Part shown: positions 4,797 through 9,133 of the stretch, in pieces | Position numbering within the stretch: the first letter of the stretch is position 1 | Layout of the letters: every line of letters starts with the position of its first letter | Position numbers and translations under genes: made by a program | Notes under the pieces: generated by a model | Told to the model about the DNA's origin: nothing | The model's database searches: none | The model's input: only the letters and a program-made list of their open reading frames with translations | IMG/VR virus record: IMGVR_UViG_2974644367_000001 | Coordinates: 1-10,236 of that record | Source: a virus | Taxonomy: Duplodnaviria > Heunggongvirae > Uroviricota > Caudoviricetes | Reading direction: 5' to 3' (one strand) | Length of the DNA: 10,236 bases

Positions 4797-4869
4797 GCGG
4801 GTGTGGTGTAAAAGGGGAACATACATGGTTTTGCCCATGTGGATGAGGGTTCGACTCCCTTCACCTGCT
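4797..4869 (+). ncRNA. Atypical tRNA-like element (6-nt anticodon loop, G3.U70, no encoded CCA)
   Basis: Cloverleaf: GCGGGTG/CACCTGC acceptor, GTGT/ACAT D stem, CATGG-TTTTGC-CCATG, GAGGG-TTCGACT-CCCTT T arm. Confidence 0.7.
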
Positions 4870-4959
4870 GCTCTGAAGGTAGCCTGATGATGAATCGGGA
4901 GTAAATAACACGAGGCGACAGAACGCGCCTACTCTTAGAAAAATAAATTGAAAATCTTG

Positions 4960-4988
4960 TTGACAGGCTCCAATAAGTGCGATAAGAT
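4960..4988 (+). promoter_or_regulatory. Sigma70-type promoter for the tRNA cluster
   Basis: TTGACA-17-TAAGAT with A-rich UP-like tract upstream, just ahead of tRNA-Pro. Confidence 0.75.
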
Positions 4989-5011
4989 AGCTTCATAGTT
5001 TTAGAAAACAT

Positions 5012-5089
5012 CTCCGTTTAGCTCAGTATGGATAGAGTAGGCCGTTTGGGGCGGTCGGGTCGAAGGTTCAAATCCTTCAACGGAGACCA
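5012..5089 (+). tRNA. tRNA-Pro(TGG)
   Basis: CTCCGTT/AACGGAG acceptor, loop TT-TGG-GG, TTCAAAT T loop, ACCA. Confidence 0.95.
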
Positions 5090-5096
5090 AATTAAT

Positions 5097-5171
5097 GTCG
5101 TAGAAGGCAAACGGTTAGCCACCTGACCTTCAATCAGTTGCTCGCGGGTTCGAATCCCGTCTACGACTCCA
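5097..5171 (+). tRNA. tRNA-Glu(TTC)
   Basis: GTCGTAG/CTACGAC, loop CC-TTC-AA (C33), TCCA end. Confidence 0.9.
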
Positions 5172-5209
5172 AAATAAAGTTTGACAGGTACTTTGAATTC
5201 TGTCAGTAT

Positions 5210-5286
5210 GGGTCAGTAGCTTAATTGGGAAAGCATCTCACTTGCAATGAGAAGGATGAGGGTTCAAGTCCCTCCTGTATCCACCA
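5210..5286 (+). tRNA. tRNA-Ala(TGC), bulged acceptor stem
   Basis: GGGTCAG pairs with CTG(T)ATCC with one bulged T; G3.U70 and A73; loop CT-TGC-AA; ACCA. Confidence 0.85.
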
Positions 5287-5462
5287 AAACTTTAATGGTC
5301 TGGTCAAATTCTCCCTTAGAATCTTGACTGATAAACTCTCTGTAAGGATTCGCGGTTGCTTGCAGAGCTTTGGGATAGCATCTTCTAAGTCACGTGCTGA
5401 AGAATGCGAAATTGGAATGACCTTGCCGAAACGGTTAGTTTGTCCAGAGCCATTAAAGTTTT
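5286..5462 (+). ncRNA. Structured non-coding RNA of unknown family (~175 nt)
   Basis: Perfect 13-bp closing stem AAAACTTTAATGG/CCATTAAAGTTTT extended by TCTGG/CCAGA; internal hairpins CTCTGTAAG/CTTGCAGAG and GCATCTTC/GAAGAATGC. Confidence 0.65.
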
Positions 5463-5464
5463 AT

Positions 5465-5539
5465 AGCGGGATGGAGCAGTGGTAGCTTGCCAGTTTCATT
5501 ATCTGGAGGTCGTAGGTTCGAATCCTACTCCCGCTTCCA
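5465..5539 (+). tRNA. tRNA-Met(CAT), fMet-like body without initiator determinants
   Basis: AGCGGGA/TCCCGCT, D region TGGAGCAGTGGTAGCT resembles tRNA-fMet; loop TT-CAT-TA; TCCA. Confidence 0.9.
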
Positions 5540-5547
5540 AATTTAAA

Positions 5548-5623
5548 GGGTTTGAAGCACATATGGATGTGCGGCTGGCTGTTAACCAGATGGTAGTGGG
5601 TTCGAGTCCCACCTTTCCCGCCA
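5548..5623 (+). tRNA. tRNA-Asn(GTT), three U.U mismatches in acceptor
   Basis: GGGTTTG/CTTTCCC; loop CT-GTT-AA; GCCA. Confidence 0.85.
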
Positions 5624-5629
5624 ATTTAT

Positions 5630-5712
5630 GCGTCTATGGCAGAGATGGTCAATGCAGCGGTCTGTAAAACCGCCCCGAAAGGTTACTGGTTCGAGTCCAG
5701 TTAGGCGCACCA
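5630..5712 (+). tRNA. tRNA-Tyr(GTA)
   Basis: GCGTCTA/TAGGCGC, loop CT-GTA-AA, variable arm, ACCA. Confidence 0.95.
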
Positions 5713-5718
5713 AACAAT

Positions 5719-5792
5719 TGCGAAGTAGTGAAATGGCATCATACTGGTTTCATTATCCGGTGTAGGTAGTTCGAATCTACCCTTCGCATCCA
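5719..5792 (+). tRNA. tRNA-Met/Ile2(CAT), second copy
   Basis: TGCGAAG/CTTCGCA, loop TT-CAT-TA, TCCA. Confidence 0.85.
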
Positions 5793-5871
5793 AATTACTC
5801 AGTTTGGGTTGTTCTGAGTGACGTGTAGGGTATTACCCTTTAGAGCGTCGAATCAAAGACTCCTTAAAGTT

Positions 5872-5948
5872 GGGGATGTGGCAGACTTGGTAATTGTACC
5901 GCACTGTCTATGCGGAATATGAGGGTTCAAATCCCTTCATCCTCGCCA
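5872..5948 (+). tRNA. tRNA-Asp(GTC)
   Basis: GGGGATG/CATCCTC, CCGCA-CTGTCTA-TGCGG, GCCA. Confidence 0.93.
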
Positions 5949-5951
5949 ATT

Positions 5952-6170
5952 TCACCGGAAAGACTACCGTCCAACTGGTAACTGCCGTCTGGTATATGCG
6001 GTGATTCTACTTTGTAGCGTTCCTCTTATGAGGTGAATGGATGTCTCCTTTCCAAAGCACATTTAGATGAAATATACAGGTCTACAGCTTTTACTTAAAC
6101 GTTTCACCTCCTTGCGTTTAAGGTTTGGGCTACATAACTGAGTAGTCTCGCTCAGGGCGACAGAGAGACA
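5952..6170 (+). ncRNA. Putative structured RNA with anti-Shine-Dalgarno loop
   Basis: TCACCG/CGGTGA, TGTAGC/GCTACA, and CTTAAACG-TTTCACCTCCTTG-CGTTTAAG hairpin; no ORF. Confidence 0.5.
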
Positions 6171-6174
6171 AAAT

Positions 6175-6265
6175 GGAAGGGCAAATCGACTGGCGACGAA
6201 AACGGTCTTGAAAACCGCCGAGCGTTAATAGCGCCTTGAGGGTTCGACTCCCTCTCCTTCCGCCA
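6175..6265 (+). tRNA. tRNA-Ser(TGA)
   Basis: GGAAGGG/TCCTTCC, loop CT-TGA-AA, long variable arm, GCCA. Confidence 0.93.
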
Positions 6266-6266
6266 C

Positions 6267-6341
6267 GGTCTAATTAGCTTATATGGTAAAGCAACGGTCT
6301 GAAAAGCCGTGGAACAGGGTTCGAATCCCGATAGACCGCCA
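6267..6341 (+). tRNA. tRNA-Phe(GAA), irregular acceptor and T stems
   Basis: ACGGT-CTGAAAA-GCCGT anticodon arm; GGTCTA/TAGACC; the T stem pairs only with a bulge; GCCA. Confidence 0.75.
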
Positions 6342-6348
6342 AATTCAA

Positions 6349-6424
6349 CGGTGTGTAACTCAATTGGCAGAGTGGGTGGCTTTTAACCACAGGGTTGCAG
6401 GTTCGATGCCTGTCACACCGACCA
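6349..6424 (+). tRNA. tRNA-Lys(TTT)
   Basis: CGGTGTG/CACACCG, loop CT-TTT-AA, ACCA. Confidence 0.93.
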
Positions 6425-6432
6425 AACAAAAT

Positions 6433-6509
6433 GGACTATTAACTCAACTGGTCAGAGTACCCGACTCTTAATCGGGAGGTTCAGGGTTCGACTCCCTGAT
6501 AGTCTACCA
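6433..6509 (+). tRNA. tRNA-Lys(CTT)
   Basis: GGACTAT/ATAGTCT, CCCGA-CTCTTAA-TCGGG, ACCA. Confidence 0.95.
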
Positions 6510-6520
6510 AATTTCTTAGT

Positions 6521-6593
6521 AGTGGTATGGCAGAGATGGTCATGCACTTCCTTCATACGGAAGCCTACATCGGTTCAAGTCCGATTACCACTT
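6521..6593 (+). tRNA. tRNA-Met/Ile2(CAT), third copy, no encoded CCA
   Basis: AGTGGTA/TACCACT, CTTCC-TTCATAC-GGAAG; followed by T-CTA instead of N-CCA. Confidence 0.85.
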
Positions 6594-6607
6594 CTAAGAG
6601 ATTTAAT

Positions 6608-6682
6608 TGTGGGTTAGCATAAATGGTAATGCAAACGCCTGATAAGCGTTAGAAGAGGGTTCGATACCCTCACCTACGACCA
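6608..6682 (+). tRNA. tRNA-Ile(GAT)
   Basis: TGTGGGT/ACCTACG, AACGC-CTGATAA-GCGTT, ACCA. Confidence 0.93.
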
Positions 6683-6688
6683 AACAAT

Positions 6689-6764
6689 CGGGGTATGGAG
6701 TAATTGGCAACTCTACGGTTTTTGAGGCCGTCAGTTTTCGGTTCGAATCCGAATGCCCCCGCCA
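6689..6764 (+). tRNA. tRNA-Gln(TTG)
   Basis: CGGGGTA/TGCCCCC (1:72 mismatch), ACGGT-TTTTGAG-GCCGT, GCCA. Confidence 0.92.
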
Positions 6765-6770
6765 AACGAT

Positions 6771-6847
6771 GCACCCTTAGAACAAACGGATAGTTCCACT
6801 GTCTTCTAAACAGTTAGTTACAGGTTCGAATCCTGTAGGGTGTGCCA
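6771..6847 (+). tRNA. tRNA-Arg(TCT)
   Basis: GCACCCT/AGGGTGT, ACTGT-CTTCTAA-ACAGT, GCCA. Confidence 0.95.
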
Positions 6848-6853
6848 AAAAAT

Positions 6854-7020
6854 GGGTGATTCTGCAACGGTGGAGCTAGGCCAGCTTTGAAGCCGTAAAA
6901 TGGGAATGCAGTATCTACTGACGATAGTTCTTGAAAGTAGTTTGTGAAGCCGGACTAACAGATTATGAGTAATGGGCGACAATAGGTCGTGGAGAGGTTC
7001 GAATCCTTAATCACTCGCCA
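6854..7020 (+). ncRNA. 167-nt tRNA-mimic RNA: acceptor stem, T arm and CCA around a ~130-nt multi-hairpin insert
   Basis: GGGTGATT (6854-6861) pairs with AATCACTC (7009-7016), then G-CCA; GAGG-TTCGAAT-CCTT T arm; no D arm or anticodon arm recognisable. Confidence 0.75.
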
Positions 7021-7028
7021 AATTTAGG

Positions 7029-7057
7029 TTGACAGGTGAAACAATCTCCTGTAATCT
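7029..7057 (+). promoter_or_regulatory. Sigma70-type promoter ahead of the tmRNA-like element
   Basis: TTGACA-17-TAATCT. Confidence 0.65.
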
Positions 7058-7063
7058 TTACCG

Positions 7064-7264
7064 TAGTTTTCGTTGGGTATGCTTCTATTTTTATCATTTA
7101 AAATAAATGCAAATGATGCTCAATTTCTGGCAGTGGCGTAATAGCTAAACACCAGTAGGGTCTTCCGACTCCCTATCACCGAATTCGGCGTAGAGTTGTC
7201 CCGTCTATGATTGCCAAACGGGGCTTCAACCTAAAAGGTTCTTACGAGAGTCTTTCAGATTGAA
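7064..7264 (+). ncRNA. tmRNA-like mRNA domain (tag ANDAQFLAVA**) without an attached tRNA-like domain
   Basis: AATAAAT-GCA resume context; 10-codon tag 7109-7138; TAA TAG in a hairpin loop; two H-type pseudoknot pairings downstream; no T arm/CCA end. Confidence 0.75.
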
Positions 7265-7265
7265 T

Positions 7266-7342
7266 GGCGTAATATCCCAATTGGCAGAGGAAGCAGGTTC
7301 AAACCCTGTTCAGTGTGGGTTCGACTCCCACTTACGCTACCA
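7266..7342 (+). tRNA. tRNA-Leu(CAA), short variable loop
   Basis: GGCGTAA/TTACGCT, GCAGG-TTCAAAC-CCTGT, ACCA. Confidence 0.9.
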
Positions 7343-7472
7343 GATTCAGATGTCTTTATAATCGTCCCTGAAATGACGGGGCAATTAAGGAGGTGGTCTG
7401 TATCTCCTGACTGTCAGGATAACCAGTAGAGCGTTAATAACACTGAGAAGTGTGATGAGTCGCTTGATAAAT

Positions 7473-7548
7473 GCAAGTATGATGTCAATAGGTAACATGG
7501 CGTCCTTCCAAGTCGCTCTTGCGGGTTCGAGTCCCGCTACTTGCTCCA
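7473..7548 (+). tRNA. tRNA-Gly(TCC)
   Basis: GCAAGTA/TACTTGC, loop CT-TCC-AA, U73, CCA. Confidence 0.93.
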
Positions 7549-7554
7549 AATTAT

Positions 7555-7630
7555 AGGGGGTTAGTTTAACTGGCAAAATATCGGCTTCCAAACCCGTAAG
7601 TTGAAGGTTCGAATCCTTCACCCCTTGCCA
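7555..7630 (+). tRNA. tRNA-Trp(CCA)
   Basis: AGGGGGT/ACCCCTT, G73, loop TT-CCA-AA; only 3 pairs in the anticodon stem. Confidence 0.8.
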
Positions 7631-7639
7631 ATTCAGAAT

Positions 7640-7714
7640 GCCTCCATCATATAAGGGCTATTATGCCTGTTTTGTAATCAGGTCATCGCGGTTCGAATCC
7701 GTGTGGGGGCACCA
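7640..7714 (+). tRNA. tRNA-Thr(TGT)
   Basis: GCCTCCA/TGGGGGC, loop TT-TGT-AA, ACCA. Confidence 0.92.
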
Positions 7715-7720
7715 AATAAT

Positions 7721-7796
7721 ACTCGTATAGCTCAGATGGTAGAGCGGCATCTTTACACGTTGCTGGTCAGGCGTTCGAGTCGCCTTGCGAGTACCA
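7721..7796 (+). tRNA. tRNA-Val(TAC)
   Basis: ACTCGTA/TGCGAGT, loop TT-TAC-AC, ACCA. Confidence 0.93.
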
Positions 7797-7802
7797 AACA
7801 AT

Positions 7803-7880
7803 GGCTGTGTAGCCCAACTTGGCAGAGGCACTACGCTAAGAACGTATTCAGTGTGGGTTCGAATCCCTCCACAGCTACCA
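7803..7880 (+). tRNA. tRNA-Leu(AAG), A34, short variable loop
   Basis: GGCTGTG/CACAGCT; TACG-CTAAGAA-CGTA puts AAG at 34-36; A73; CCA. Confidence 0.8.
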
Positions 7881-7886
7881 AACAAT

Positions 7887-7963
7887 AGACCTTTATCTTA
7901 AATGGACAGAGACTCAAGCTACGAACTTGAGAGGTTCGGGTTCGAATCCCGAAAGGTCTTCCA
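7887..7963 (+). tRNA. tRNA-Arg(ACG)
   Basis: AGACCTT/AAGGTCT, TCAAG-CTACGAA-CTTGA, TCCA. Confidence 0.95.
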
Positions 7964-7965
7964 AT

Positions 7966-8042
7966 AGGATGTTCGTATAGTTGGCCTATTACACCGGACT
8001 CTGAATCCGGTTACGATGGTTCGAGTCCATCACGTCCTGCCA
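7966..8042 (+). tRNA. tRNA-Gln(CTG)
   Basis: AGGATGT/ACGTCCT, CCGGA-CTCTGAA-TCCGG, GCCA. Confidence 0.93.
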
Positions 8043-8048
8043 AACAAT

Positions 8049-8125
8049 AGGTGATTACCCCAATTGGCAGAGGGTAGGAGCTTAAACCTCCGATGTTGAG
8101 AGTTCGAATCTCTCATCACCTACCA
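8049..8125 (+). tRNA. tRNA-Leu(TAA), short variable loop
   Basis: AGGTGAT/ATCACCT, loop CT-TAA-AC, ACCA. Confidence 0.9.
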
Positions 8126-8127
8126 AT

Positions 8128-8205
8128 GGAGTTGGTATCATAAATGGATAATGACCCTGACTGTGAATCAGGTCTATGCGGGTTCGAATCCCGTCCTTCT
8201 CCCCA
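8128..8205 (+). tRNA. tRNA-His(GTG)
   Basis: G-1:C73 pair, GAGTTGG/CCTTCTC (two U.U), CCTGA-CTGTGAA-TCAGG, CCA. Confidence 0.92.
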
Positions 8206-8211
8206 AATTCT

Positions 8212-8304
8212 GGAAGATTAACCCTAAATGGTAAGGGAAGTGTTTGCTAAACACTCAGTAACCGAGAAATCGGCGTACCAGTTCAAGTCTGGTATCTTCC
8301 TCCA
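8212..8304 (+). tRNA. tRNA-Ser(GCT)
   Basis: GGAAGAT/ATCTTCC, AGTGT-TTGCTAA-ACACT, long variable arm, TCCA. Confidence 0.93.
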
Positions 8305-8320
8305 ATTCGTAAGGTGTATA

Positions 8321-9055
8321 ATGGCTGTCACAGACCAAACTAAGCAAATCTTCAGTTTAATGCAGTCTGGTAAGGCTTTTAAAAATCCTCTGGCGAGTGC
8401 ATCATCAAGTCTGTCTTCAAGTATTAGTTCCGGTACATCTGGAATGAACACACTGAAGAGCAACCTGACAAATCCAACCGCTCAGACGGCTTTACAGAAT
8501 GCTGGCATTAACACGACATTACTGACAAGTGGTGCAGGGGCTTTAACCTCTTCAGCTTCGACTGTTACAAGTCTCGTCAGTTATGGTCAGACCTCAGTTA
8601 ACGAGTTCTCTCAGAGAATGCAGTTGGCAGAGGGTTACAAGAGTTCTTACGAATCTCTTACAGGCACTTCCGCAGGTTGTTCACCTTTCAACTCCGTAAT
8701 GGGTGTTGCACAAGGAATCGGACAGTCAGCAATGAATGCTTACAACACGGTGATGACCGGAGTTAACTCAGCTATCAGTGCATTGAATGATGCTATCGCA
8801 AAAGGTCTTGCAACTATTCAGGACTTAGCAGCAGCAGCATACGCAAAGATTAATGAGCTTATCACAAAGGCCAAAGAGTTTGCACAGAAGGTTGTTGATA
8901 TGATTGCTGAAGAAGCAAGCCTAATCAGTGATTACCTGAAGACTCAAGCCAGTGCGTTTATGGCGAAGTATATGCCAGATTGGTTCAAGGACTCTTGTAA
9001 GAGTGCTGTGACAAATAACGTGGCAACCGATGAATTGAAAGCAGCAGCGAAATAA
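8321..9055 (+). CDS. Hypothetical Ser/Ala/Thr-rich helical protein, 244 aa
   Basis: AAGGTG SD before ATG 8321 (MAVTDQTKQIF...); the track's start at 8228 lies inside tRNA-Ser(GCT). Confidence 0.88.
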   Translation: MAVTDQTKQIFSLMQSGKAFKNPLASASSSLSSSISSGTSGMNTLKSNLTNPTAQTALQNAGINTTLLTSGAGALTSSASTVTSLVSYGQTSVNEFSQRMQLAEGYKSSYESLTGTSAGCSPFNSVMGVAQGIGQSAMNAYNTVMTGVNSAISALNDAIAKGLATIQDLAAAAYAKINELITKAKEFAQKVVDMIAEEASLISDYLKTQASAFMAKYMPDWFKDSCKSAVTNNVATDELKAAAK

Positions 9056-9056
9056 T

Positions 9057-9133
9057 GGCGCGATGACTGAAACACAAATGGTGTCCGTCTGCAAAACGGA
9101 AAAATGAGGGTGGGATTCCCTCTCGCGTCTCCA
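9057..9133 (+). tRNA. tRNA-Cys(GCA), non-canonical T loop
   Basis: GGCGCGA/TCGCGTC, U73, TCCGT-CTGCAAA-ACGGA; T loop TGGGATT. Confidence 0.8.

What the first reader, a model, noticed from the sequence alone, without database searches (positions are those of the whole stretch)
6854..7020. 167-nt tRNA mimic: acceptor stem, T arm and CCA wrapped around a large structured insert
Seen: GGGTGATT/AATCACTC acceptor helix, G discriminator, encoded CCA and canonical TTCGAAT T loop, spaced like the other tRNAs in the cluster. The D and anticodon arms are replaced by ~130 nt with nested helices: CTGCA/TGCAG, ACGGT/GCCGT, GAGCT/AGCTT, TAGTTTG/CGGACTA, and a GCGAC/GTCGT hairpin just before the T arm, like a long variable arm. 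It has G2.U71 rather than G3.U70, so it is not an obvious AlaRS substrate; G73 plus a variable-arm-like hairpin recalls SerRS determinants (inference). Established comparators: the T4 tRNA-cluster stable RNAs RnaC/RnaD of unknown function, and tmRNA tRNA-like domains. It should be processed by RNase P and may bind EF-Tu, SmpB or tRNA-sensing defence proteins.
Basis: partly seen in the sequence, partly recalled or inferred. Interest (0 to 1): 0.82.

Follow-up and report, generated by a model that had tools for sequence, protein, structure and literature searches.

The report
Oversized non-decoding tRNA mimic in phage
A phage tRNA gene cluster holds a 167-base gene with true tRNA ends and elbow. 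Its body is too large and too altered to read codons, so it is probably a stable tRNA look-alike of unknown role and not the missing half of the tmRNA-like RNA next door.

Summary
The 167-nt element (6854-7020, +) is real. It has an 8-bp acceptor helix, a 4-bp T stem with a UUCGAAU loop, G73 and an encoded CCA. It starts 6 nt after the CCA of tRNA-Arg(UCU), which is the commonest spacing in this tRNA cluster of a Kolesnikvirus (phiEa21-4-like) phage. ARAGORN and Rfam do not call it.

It is confined to that genus. Across 7 distinct copies the ends never vary. All 18 variable columns are interior, and 12 of 13 changes inside helices keep pairing.

It is best read as a class-II (tRNA-Ser or allo-tRNA-like, 8/4) scaffold. 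It keeps a D stem, a UGGG elbow motif, a degenerate anticodon-like hairpin (no U33, loop differs between lineages) and a variable-arm-like hairpin. Two expansion arms are added. It is therefore a non-decoding tRNA mimic.

The neighbouring RNA (about 7062-7265) carries a tmRNA-type tag template (ANDAQFLAVA**). I found no pairing or co-variation with the mimic and no G3.U70. The tag RNA also occurs in hundreds of phages that lack this mimic. A split tmRNA is therefore unlikely (about 10%).

The function is inferred only: a decoy for a factor that reads the acceptor end and variable arm. This scan had already flagged the same element in sister genomes.

The parts
6854..7020 (+). 167-nt tRNA-like RNA gene (the finding)
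   Evidence: Sequence. Covariance model R1 scores 206 bits on itself and finds no other copy in the window. Conserved at 96-100% in 27 Kolesnikvirus records.
6854..6861 (+). 5' strand of the 8-bp acceptor helix (pairs with 7009-7016; G2.U71)
   Evidence: Invariant in 7 distinct copies, 100% paired.
6862..6911 (+). Expanded D arm. D stem CUGCA/UGCAG (6862-6866 with 6907-6911) encloses a 30-nt nested hairpin (6867-6896) and a UGGG motif (6901-6904) where G18-G19 would lie.
   Evidence: Two one-sided changes (UA to UG, GC to GU) keep the D stem paired. R1 aligns UGGGAA to the UGGUAA D loop of a phage tRNA-Ser.
6912..6926 (+). Degenerate anticodon-like hairpin: 4-bp stem, 7-nt loop UACUGAC (A where U33 should be)
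   Evidence: Stem invariant. The loop reads GACUUAC in the SPARTY, SunLIRen and SE5 lineage, so no anticodon is kept.
6927..6977 (+). 51-nt expansion arm: helix 74-80 with 117-124 encloses helix 84-92 with 105-113
   Evidence: Seven one-sided changes and one two-sided change (CG to GU, pair 77-121) all keep pairing.
6976..6990 (+). Variable-arm-like hairpin GCGAC-AAUAG-GUCGU just 5' of the T arm
   Evidence: Three one-sided changes keep pairing. R1 aligns it to the variable arm of tRNA-Ser(GCU).
6994..7008 (+). T arm: 4-bp stem, loop UUCGAAU
   Evidence: Invariant. Only T-loop motif in the window outside a called tRNA.
7009..7020 (+). 3' acceptor strand AAUCACUC, discriminator G73, encoded CCA
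   Evidence: Nearly all tRNAs of the cluster also encode CCA.
4960..4988 (+). Sigma-70-like promoter (TTGACA-17-TAAGAT) at the head of the tRNA cluster. It is the likely source of the polycistronic precursor that holds the mimic.
   Evidence: No plus-strand terminator-like site was found between it and 8400.
7029..7057 (+). Neighbour, not part of the mimic: promoter-like TTGACA-17-TAATCT in front of the tag RNA
   Evidence: Seen in the sequence. The counterpart in Felixounavirus HY02 is TTGACA-17-TATAGT. It falls below the threshold of the consensus scan.
7062..7265 (+). Neighbour, not part of the mimic: tmRNA-message-like tag RNA. 5' arm 7062-7073 is antisense to the E. coli ssrA tag codons. 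Start-less tag frame 7109-7138 (ANDAQFLAVA) with stops at 7139-7144. Pseudoknot at 7156-7188. The 3' end would be set by RNase P cleavage at tRNA-Leu (7266).
   Evidence: Weak tmRNA hits. 526 phage records hold the core. 36 loci carry 10-codon AN[DE]xxxL[AM][AV]A frames. 12-nt perfect complement to ssrA, reached by 1 of 400 shuffles. ARAGORN reads the tag in Moogle.

Best explanation
This is a real gene for a stable, non-decoding tRNA mimic derived from a class-II (tRNA-Ser or allo-tRNA-like) tRNA.

What it keeps:
- The 12-bp acceptor/T minihelix in an 8/4 layout.
- The T loop.
- A D stem with a UGGG motif that could form the elbow.
- G73 and CCA.
- A variable-arm-like hairpin.

What has changed:
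- The anticodon arm has shrunk to a 4-bp hairpin without U33.
- Two arms have been added: 30 nt in the D loop and 51 nt before the variable arm.

Inferred biogenesis: it is transcribed with the tRNA cluster and released like a tRNA, by RNase P at the 5' end and trimming to CCA at the 3' end.

Inferred mode of action: it occupies a host factor that reads the acceptor end, elbow and long variable arm and ignores the anticodon. Candidates are SerRS, or an acceptor-end-modifying defence toxin of the AbiEii/MenT type. It does this without taking part in decoding. It does not pair with the adjacent tag RNA.

The anatomy, conservation pattern and lack of decoding features are shown here. Expression, processing and the decoy target are inferred.
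For: Frame and position:
- tRNA frame at the cluster's commonest spacing, and the only T arm outside a called tRNA.
- It is not a canonical tRNA.

Conservation:
- The ends are invariant and all 18 variable columns lie in the interior.
- In my 51-pair model, 99.7% of cells pair, 12 of 13 changed paired columns keep pairing, and one pair changes on both sides (CG to GU). With the partners slid by 1-3 columns only 30-49% of cells pair.
- Between the window and phage SPARTY the interior differs at 9.6% of sites. Third codon positions of the flanking genes differ at 13-37%, and the mimic's ends at 0%. This indicates purifying selection.

Not a decoder:
- The anticodon-like loop has A at position 33 and changes from UACUGAC to GACUUAC between lineages.

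Class-II scaffold:
- The best non-self hits of model R1 are tRNA-Ser(GCU) genes of three unrelated phages.
- 8/4 tRNAs with G73 and a long variable arm are published. That paper takes these features to indicate serine identity (charging by SerRS). It also reports five-stem-junction variants of allo-tRNA(UAU); amber-suppressor versions of six allo-tRNA(UAU) species were inactive in its reporter (PMC5389517).

Biogenesis and candidate target:
- A promoter heads the cluster and no terminator-like site follows it.
- MenT3 extends the CCA end of tRNA-Ser, and the long variable loop is crucial for this (PMC11162799). The DUF1814 toxin family to which MenT belongs also includes the abortive-infection toxin AbiEii (abstracts).
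Against: - There is no expression or end-mapping data. The public runs available were assembled contigs only.
- The folding energy equals that of shuffled sequence.
- Only 7 closely related sequences exist. The covariation signal is weak (34 of 500 shuffles reach it), and the structure was partly derived from these same sequences.
- The element is confined to one phage genus.
- Its interior changes about 2.5 times faster than the tRNAs.
- Some tRNA-Ser determinants recalled from my own knowledge are not matched: G2-C71 is G2.U71 here, and C11-G24 is G11-C24 here.
- No decoy target has been identified, and the phage encodes no SmpB, Ro or RtcB partner.
Confidence: 0.5

Rival explanations
1. Relic. 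A duplicated class-II tRNA gene lost decoding ability, picked up two insertions, and persists in one young genus without any function.
For: It occurs only in Kolesnikvirus. The interior differs at 9.6% of sites against 3.9% for the tRNAs. Folding energy is that of shuffled sequence. The anticodon-like loop drifts between lineages. The covariation signal is statistically weak.
Against: The ends, T loop, CCA and spacing are fully invariant although synonymous sites nearby differ at 13-37%. Twelve of 13 substitutions in helices keep pairing, and one pair shows a two-sided change. The interior changes about 2.5 times more slowly than third codon positions.
Confidence: 0.17
2. Split ribosome-rescue RNA. 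The mimic is the tRNA-like half and the adjacent tag RNA (7062-7265) is the message half of a two-gene phage tmRNA.
For: The two genes are adjacent on the same strand, and the mimic has a free CCA end. The tag RNA has a genuine tmRNA-type tag frame and lacks any tRNA-like domain. Oversized tRNA-framed RNAs also lie near the tag RNA in Mooglevirus and Kuttervirus.
Against: - Complementarity between the two RNAs does not exceed shuffles: local score 26 against a mean of 28.4, and the longest perfect match is 8 nt, reached by 85 of 300 shuffles.
- Between the window and phage SPARTY (group B), 12 sites differ in the mimic against 1 in the tag RNA. There is no co-variation.
- There is no G3.U70, the discriminator is G73 where E. 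coli tmRNA has A73, and a D stem and an anticodon-like hairpin sit where SmpB would bind (the last point from my own knowledge).
- The tag RNA occurs without this mimic in Felixounavirus, HK633, Pollock and hundreds of other phages.
- The tag RNA carries its own 12-nt antisense arm to host ssrA, which offers a different route to the ribosome.
- The phage has no SmpB gene.
Confidence: 0.1
3. Aminoacylated adaptor or amino-acid donor. SerRS charges the mimic, as it does allo-tRNAs. The charged RNA then either miscodes on the ribosome or feeds an aminoacyl-tRNA-dependent enzyme.
For: It has the 8/4 branch, G73 and a variable-arm-like hairpin. The allo-tRNA paper lists G73 and the long variable arm as essential for SerRS, and states that SerRS also accepts 8/4 tRNA-Sec (PMC5389517). 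The scaffold aligns to tRNA-Ser(GCU).
Against: The anticodon-like arm has 4 bp and A33, and its would-be anticodon changes from CUG to CUU between close relatives. Position 2-71 is G.U and 11-24 is G-C. Amber-suppressor versions of six allo-tRNA(UAU) species, a group for which five-stem-junction structures are proposed, were inactive in translation in that paper. I know of no aminoacyl-tRNA-dependent enzyme in the phage, and I did not search for one systematically.
Confidence: 0.1
4. Antisense binder of the acceptor end. Bases 6869-6877 (GGUGGAGCU) pair with the 3' end AGCUCCACC of host tmRNA and block charging. From memory, tRNA-Ala ends in the same bases.
For: There is a 9-nt perfect complement to E. 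coli ssrA 354-362. Only 2 of 400 shuffles give 9 nt or more touching the last 15 nt of ssrA. The neighbouring tag RNA also targets ssrA.
Against: A match of 9 nt or more anywhere in ssrA arises in 44 of 400 shuffles, and the 3'-end reading was made after seeing the result. The 9-mer is buried in a conserved hairpin of the mimic, and its target lies within the acceptor stem.
Confidence: 0.05
5. Interrupted tRNA. The two inserts are removed after transcription to give a working class-II tRNA.
For: Deleting both inserts in silico gives an 86-nt sequence that ARAGORN accepts at a relaxed threshold.
Against: ARAGORN's call uses a different register (Val-gac) and depends on boundaries that I chose. 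From my own knowledge, bacterial and phage tRNA introns are group I introns in the anticodon loop and far larger. The inserts show structure-preserving substitutions, as expected of mature RNA.
Confidence: 0.02

Closest known systems
Allo-tRNAs and other irregular 8/4 class-II tRNAs (Mukai et al. 2017, PMC5389517)
   Same: A 12-bp acceptor branch split 8/4, G73, a long variable arm, and occurrence in phage tRNA clusters. That paper also proposes five-stem-junction structures for allo-tRNA(UAU) species. Amber-suppressor versions of six such species were inactive in translation and may be regulatory.
   Different: The mimic has no usable anticodon arm (4 bp, A33). It has a 30-nt hairpin inside the D loop in place of a long D stem with a tetraloop, and an extra 51-nt arm. 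I saw no sequence relationship.
Class-II tRNA-Ser(GCU) of phages
   Same: These are the best non-self matches of the mimic's covariance model. The acceptor, D stem with UGG, hairpin, variable arm, T arm and GCCA all align.
   Different: Scores are only 19-20 bits. About 80 extra nucleotides are present. There is no GCU anticodon. The phage already has tRNA-Ser(UGA) and tRNA-Ser(GCU).
Phage T4 RNA C and RNA D
   Same: Small stable non-tRNA RNAs encoded inside a phage tRNA cluster, with roles still unknown (PMC3014915 and PMC9697503).
   Different: I made no sequence or structure comparison. T4 and this phage are unrelated. Whether RNA C or RNA D has a tRNA frame with CCA was not checked here.
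tmRNA tRNA-like domain: the acceptor piece of two-piece tmRNA and the TLD-only tmRNA of mycobacteriophage DS6A (PMC4131195, PMC11915505)
   Same: A tRNA top half with a CCA end and no anticodon, phage-borne, and lying next to a tmRNA-type tag template.
   Different: G2.U71 and G3-C70 replace G3.U70. The discriminator is G73 where E. coli tmRNA has A73. A D stem is present. There is no helix to a coding piece. No tmRNA model covers it beyond its last few bases.
YrlA (bacterial Y RNA) tRNA-like module, recalled from my own knowledge
   Same: A T arm and D arm mimic carried on a larger RNA. Similar embedded T-arm cassettes lie beside the tag RNA in other phages.
   Different: The mimic has free tRNA-type 5' and 3' ends with CCA, not a long Ro-binding stem. 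The phage has no Ro (TROVE) gene. No RNA family of Rfam other than the listed weak chance-level hits matched the region.

Membership tests
Canonical tRNA (Rfam RF00005 / ARAGORN) | Cloverleaf that scores above the family threshold | tested here: not met
   No RF00005 hit over 6854-7020 even at E up to 10, and no ARAGORN call.
Canonical tRNA (Rfam RF00005 / ARAGORN) | 5-bp anticodon stem, 7-nt loop with U33, and a conserved anticodon | tested here: not met
   The stem has 4 bp. The loop is UACUGAC (A33) and reads GACUUAC in sister phages.
Canonical tRNA (Rfam RF00005 / ARAGORN) | Acceptor/T minihelix of 12 bp, T loop UUCRANY, NCCA end | tested here: met
   8 + 4 bp, loop UUCGAAU, GCCA; invariant in 7 copies.
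tmRNA tRNA-like domain / acceptor piece of two-piece tmRNA | G3.U70 alanine identity pair (with A73, as in E. coli tmRNA) | tested here: not met
   G1-C72, G2.U71, G3-C70 and G73.
tmRNA tRNA-like domain / acceptor piece of two-piece tmRNA | Helices that tie the tRNA-like part to the coding part | tested here: not met
   Complementarity to 7060-7265 does not exceed shuffles, and there is no co-variation.
tmRNA tRNA-like domain / acceptor piece of two-piece tmRNA | Match to tmRNA covariance models | tested here: not met
   The weak tmRNA hits lie downstream, at 7035-7141 and 7015-7178, not over the mimic.
tmRNA tRNA-like domain / acceptor piece of two-piece tmRNA | Binding to SmpB and charging by AlaRS | not testable with these tools
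   This needs biochemistry. The phage has no smpB gene of its own.
Allo-tRNA / 8/4 class-II tRNA (PMC5389517) | 12-bp acceptor branch split 8/4 or 9/3 | tested here: met
   U8-A pairs, and A140/A156 cannot form a fifth T-stem pair. This gives 8 + 4.
Allo-tRNA / 8/4 class-II tRNA (PMC5389517) | Long variable arm and G73 or U73 | tested here: met
   Hairpin 6976-6990 just 5' of the T arm, with 3 pairing-preserving changes, and G73.
Allo-tRNA / 8/4 class-II tRNA (PMC5389517) | Long D stem with a tetraloop and a longer-than-usual anticodon stem (tRNA-Sec-like) | tested here: not met
   The 5-bp D stem encloses a 40-nt loop that holds a hairpin, and the anticodon-like stem has 4 bp.
Allo-tRNA / 8/4 class-II tRNA (PMC5389517) | Charged by SerRS and active on the ribosome | not testable with these tools
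   No biochemical data are available.
T4 RNA C / RNA D | Stable non-tRNA RNA encoded within a phage tRNA cluster | tested here: inconclusive
   The location criterion is met. Stability and expression are not shown. Homology to the T4 RNAs was not tested.
YrlA / Y RNA | tRNA-like module on a long stem that binds Ro, with a Ro gene nearby | tested here: not met
   The ends are free and carry CCA. There is no TROVE gene in the 84.7-kb genome. No Rfam family reached a meaningful score on the region.

The most novel reading that the evidence does not exclude
The mimic and the adjacent tag RNA act together on ribosome rescue. Either they form a two-gene trans-translation device, in which a serine- or otherwise-charged tRNA-like RNA delivers a phage-written degradation tag. 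Or they are a pair of RNAs that both seize host tmRNA: the tag RNA through its 12-nt antisense arm to the tag codons, and the mimic through its 9-nt complement to the tmRNA CCA end.
Probability: 0.1. Interest if true: 0.9.

Novelty: new variant of a known kind. Interest (0 to 1): 0.45.

Why it matters
Phage tRNA clusters are usually read only as codon-supply or anti-nuclease devices. A conserved, tRNA-framed RNA that cannot decode shows that these clusters also carry tRNA look-alikes, and that standard tRNA finders miss them.

If it is a decoy for enzymes or toxins that read the acceptor end and the long variable arm, it would be an RNA-based counter-defence of a new type. If it cooperates with the neighbouring tmRNA-like tag RNA, it would bear on how hundreds of enterobacterial phages tamper with ribosome rescue.

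Either way, the 167-nt gene and the tag RNA deserve annotation in Kolesnikvirus genomes. Several of these phages have been isolated or tested for fire-blight control.

Tried and rejected
- **RNA-seq evidence.** The only public runs that hold the locus are assembled contigs, one of them a small metatranscriptome. Laying four of them showed cover over tRNA and protein-coding parts alike, with contig breaks at repeated T-loop sequence. This says nothing about RNA ends, strand or level.
- **Whole-length duplex folding.** Folding the mimic against the tag RNA or against ssrA gave meaningless full-length duplexes with z near 0. I replaced this with local alignment and longest-match tests. The first script, with a dinucleotide shuffle, timed out.
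- **Search for more distant homologues to gain covariation.**
  - IMG/VR pattern scan: 1 hit.
  - Metagenome pattern scan: 1 true hit, identical to the SPARTY type, plus 3 chance hits.
  - Covariance-model search of five other phage genomes and 26 sources (the window and 25 loci): only ordinary tRNAs.
- **BLAST of the interior** against the rest of the window and about 130 phage loci found nothing.
- **In-silico removal of the inserts** gave only a marginal ARAGORN call in a different register.
- **The 86-nt alternative** (partner AAGTGAT) noted in an earlier scan entry exists only in the SPARTY-type lineage and not in this genome.
- **The permuted tmRNA that ARAGORN calls in Moogle** joins the real tag to an unrelated T arm 570 nt away and to part of tRNA-Lys. 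I rejected it as a gene model.
- **Literature.** I found no paper that describes the mimic or the tag RNA in Ounavirinae or Ackermannviridae.

Full report
**Context.** The window comes from an 84.7-kb Kolesnikvirus phage (phiEa21-4/phiEa104-like, Ounavirinae). Bases 6700-7400 of the window are 100% identical to Erwinia phage vB_EamM-BoyaciRG1 and 96-99% identical to 26 other records from phages of Erwinia, Salmonella, Hafnia and Cronobacter. Bases 4797-9133 hold 29 tRNA genes on the plus strand. The finding lies between tRNA-Arg(UCU) (6771-6847) and tRNA-Leu(CAA) (7266-7342).

**Observation.**
- GGGUGAUU (6854-6861) pairs with AAUCACUC (7009-7016).
- G73 and CCA follow, and the T arm GAGG-UUCGAAU-CCUU precedes them.
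- The 5' end lies 6 nt after the previous CCA. This is the commonest gap in the cluster.
- It is the only T-loop motif in the window outside a called tRNA.
- ARAGORN and Rfam do not report it, even at E up to 10.
- Its folding energy is that of shuffled sequence (z = 0.03).
- The tRNA frame is therefore real and well placed, but thermodynamics alone does not mark the interior as special.

**Conservation and structure.**
- The element occurs only in Kolesnikvirus: 27 of 50,697 phage records, one IMG/VR contig and one metagenome contig.
- The window and eight related loci gave seven distinct sequences.
- All 18 variable columns lie between positions 33 and 138. Both ends are invariant.
- I built a 51-pair model from minimum-free-energy and alignment folds plus inspection.
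- In this model 99.7% of cells pair, and 12 of 13 changed paired columns stay paired. Pair 77-121 changes on both sides (CG to GU).
- When the 3' partners are slid by 1-3 columns, only 30-49% of cells pair.
- The shuffle control is weak (34 of 500), as expected for so few and such close sequences.
The alternative 84-92/105-113 absorbs four substitutions without loss of pairing. The other four helices hold, apart from one mismatch in GAGCT/AGCTT in one copy.
- Between the window and phage SPARTY, third codon positions of six flanking genes differ at 13-37%. All tRNAs differ at 3.9%, the mimic's interior at 9.6% and its ends at 0%.
- The interior is therefore constrained, though less than a tRNA. 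The pattern suggests selection on shape more than on sequence.

**What kind of RNA it is.**
- The layout is a cloverleaf with additions.
  - 8-bp acceptor.
  - A D stem (9-13 with 54-58) whose loop holds a 30-nt nested hairpin and a UGGG motif.
  - A 4-bp hairpin with a 7-nt loop in the anticodon position.
  - A 51-nt two-helix arm.
  - A short hairpin just before the T arm.
  - A 4-bp T stem.
- The 7-nt loop has A where U33 should be. It reads UACUGAC in one lineage and GACUUAC in the other. No anticodon is preserved, so the RNA is not a decoder.
- A covariance model of the element finds its best non-self matches in tRNA-Ser(GCU) genes of three unrelated phages (20.1, 19.8 and 18.9 bits). It aligns the acceptor, the D stem with UGG, the hairpin, the variable arm and the T arm.
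- The 8/4 split of the acceptor branch, G73 and a long variable arm are the hallmarks of the published allo-tRNAs and 8/4 tRNA-Ser. These were also found in phage tRNA clusters. Five-stem-junction structures are proposed for allo-tRNA(UAU) species, and amber-suppressor versions of six of these were inactive in translation (PMC5389517).
- The interior resembles no other tRNA or cassette in about 1 Mb of phage loci. The two acceptor strands match perfectly. Both points argue against fused remnants of two tRNAs.

**The neighbour, and the split-tmRNA idea.**
- A promoter-like TTGACA-17-TAATCT (7029-7057) lies directly downstream of the mimic.
- It is followed by an RNA of about 200 nt that runs to the RNase P site of tRNA-Leu.
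- This RNA carries a start-less frame GCA...GCG UAA UAG = ANDAQFLAVA** (7109-7144) and a pseudoknot.
- Its core is conserved at 72-80% identity in 526 phage records of unrelated groups: Felixounavirus, Mooglevirus, Ackermannviridae, lambdoid HK633, Klebsiella siphophages and N4-like phages.
- In 36 loci the frame always has 10 codons, AN[DE]xxxL[AM][AV]A, giving 12 different peptides.
- The pseudoknot stems differ between loci while staying complementary (my reading of the sequences printed).
- ARAGORN itself reads the resume signal and the tag in Moogle.
- The 5' end of this RNA (CGUAGUUUUCGU, 7062-7073) is a perfect complement of E. coli ssrA 97-108, which lies within the tag codons. Only 1 of 400 shuffles reaches this length.
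- The motif GUUUUCG lies just upstream of the tag frame in nearly all of these loci.
- Earlier entries of this scan describe the same tag RNA and the same 167-nt element in other genomes. I reused their leads but repeated the tests myself.

Is the mimic the missing tRNA-like half? My evidence says probably not.
- Local complementarity between the two RNAs is below the shuffle mean (26 against 28.4). The longest perfect match is 8 nt, reached by 85 of 300 shuffles.
- Between the window and phage SPARTY (group B), 12 sites differ in the mimic against 1 in the tag RNA.
- There is no G3.U70, the discriminator is G73, and a D stem and an extra hairpin occupy the side where SmpB would sit.
- The phage has no smpB, Ro or RtcB gene.
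- The tag RNA occurs in most phages without this mimic. In Felixounavirus an ordinary tRNA-Ile precedes it.
- Its antisense arm offers another way to reach the ribosome, through host tmRNA.
- Against this, oversized tRNA-framed RNAs of unrelated sequence also lie near the tag RNA in Moogle (121 nt) and in Kuttervirus phage 38 (126 nt). Embedded T-arm cassettes are common around it.
- A looser functional link therefore cannot be excluded. I give the split or joint reading about 10%.

**Mechanism.**
- Shown here:
  - a conserved tRNA frame with features that could form the elbow;
  - loss of decoding features;
  - structure-preserving change in the added arms;
  - position inside a cluster that has a promoter at 4960-4988 and no plus-strand terminator-like site after it.
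- Inferred:
  - release by RNase P and 3' trimming;
  - stability;
  - action as a look-alike that engages a factor reading the acceptor end, elbow and long variable arm.
- SerRS is one candidate, and the allo-tRNA paper gives grounds for it.
- Another candidate is the family of nucleotidyltransferase toxins that includes MenT and AbiEii. MenT3 extends the CCA end of tRNA-Ser, and the long variable loop is crucial for this (PMC11162799). AbiEii is an abortive-infection toxin of the same DUF1814 family.
- None of this was tested.
- A 9-nt complement of the mimic (6869-6877) to the 3' end of ssrA is noted. It is not significant without post hoc weighting.

**Comparison and novelty.**
- The nearest described things are irregular 8/4 class-II tRNAs (allo-tRNAs) and the T4 cluster RNAs C and D, whose roles are still unknown.
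- The element is not a member of the tRNA, tmRNA or Y RNA families by the features I could test.
- I found no paper that describes it.
- It is a new variant of a known kind. It is of moderate interest by itself and of higher interest only if it proves to be tied to the tag RNA.

Noticed in passing
window 7029-7265: An unannotated tmRNA-message-like RNA with its own promoter-like site. It has a 10-codon start-less tag frame (ANDAQFLAVA**), a pseudoknot, and a 12-nt 5' arm perfectly antisense to the tag codons of E. coli ssrA. Its core is present in 526 phage records of unrelated families.
   Followed up: yes
window 6869-6877: GGUGGAGCU inside the mimic's D-loop hairpin is a perfect complement of the last bases before the terminal A of E. 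coli tmRNA (AGCUCCACC). From memory, tRNA-Ala ends in the same bases. A match of this length anywhere in ssrA arises in 44 of 400 shuffles, and at the 3' end in 2 of 400 (post hoc).
   Followed up: partly
window 7343-7472: A 130-nt non-tRNA spacer between tRNA-Leu(CAA) and tRNA-Gly. It contains AAGGAGGTGGTCTGTATCTCC, a block shared with Felixounavirus HY02 (L003, about 1830-1848). This may be another small RNA or a leader.
   Followed up: no
window 5210-5282: tRNA-Ala(UGC) has an irregular acceptor end. Infernal flags two non-standard pairs, and the 3' side reads CUGUAUCC-ACCA, one base too long for a 7-bp stem.
   Followed up: no
window 4797-4869: ARAGORN calls a tRNA of undetermined identity with a two-base anticodon (tt). 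It lies upstream of the cluster promoter and does not end in CCA.
   Followed up: no
window 5283-5464 and 5949-6174: Two long non-tRNA spacers in the cluster behave oppositely between this phage and SPARTY. The first shows 0% difference over 182 nt and the second 14% over 225 nt. This suggests either a further conserved RNA or recent exchange in the first spacer.
   Followed up: no
L009 1218-1338 (Citrobacter phage Moogle) and L002 1639-1764 (Salmonella phage 38): Two other oversized tRNA-framed RNAs (121 nt ending G-CCA, and 126 nt ending U-CCA), each with an acceptor stem, a T arm and large interior arms. They are unrelated in sequence to the 167-nt element, and both lie close to the tag RNA.
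   Followed up: partly
L003 1922-2004 (HY02); also L009, around 1560 (T-arm hit 615 nt after the tag): An irregular tRNA-like gene of about 83 nt (AUGGGAC...GUCCCAU-G-CCA). It has a CCA-containing anticodon-like loop and a D loop without GG. ARAGORN misses it.
   Followed up: no
L015 79-588 (Erwinia phage Prophecy): An HNH homing-endonuclease gene is inserted in the tRNA cluster just upstream of the mimic, which remains intact.
   Followed up: no
L004 about 1020-1130; also L046, L054, L068, L108: A recurring cassette in which a T arm (GAGGG-UUCGAAU-CCCUA or similar) is embedded in a long helix GGUAAGAGCAUU...AGUGCUCUUUCC. It lies next to or inside the tag RNA and has no free CCA end, which recalls Y-RNA-like tRNA modules.
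   Followed up: partly
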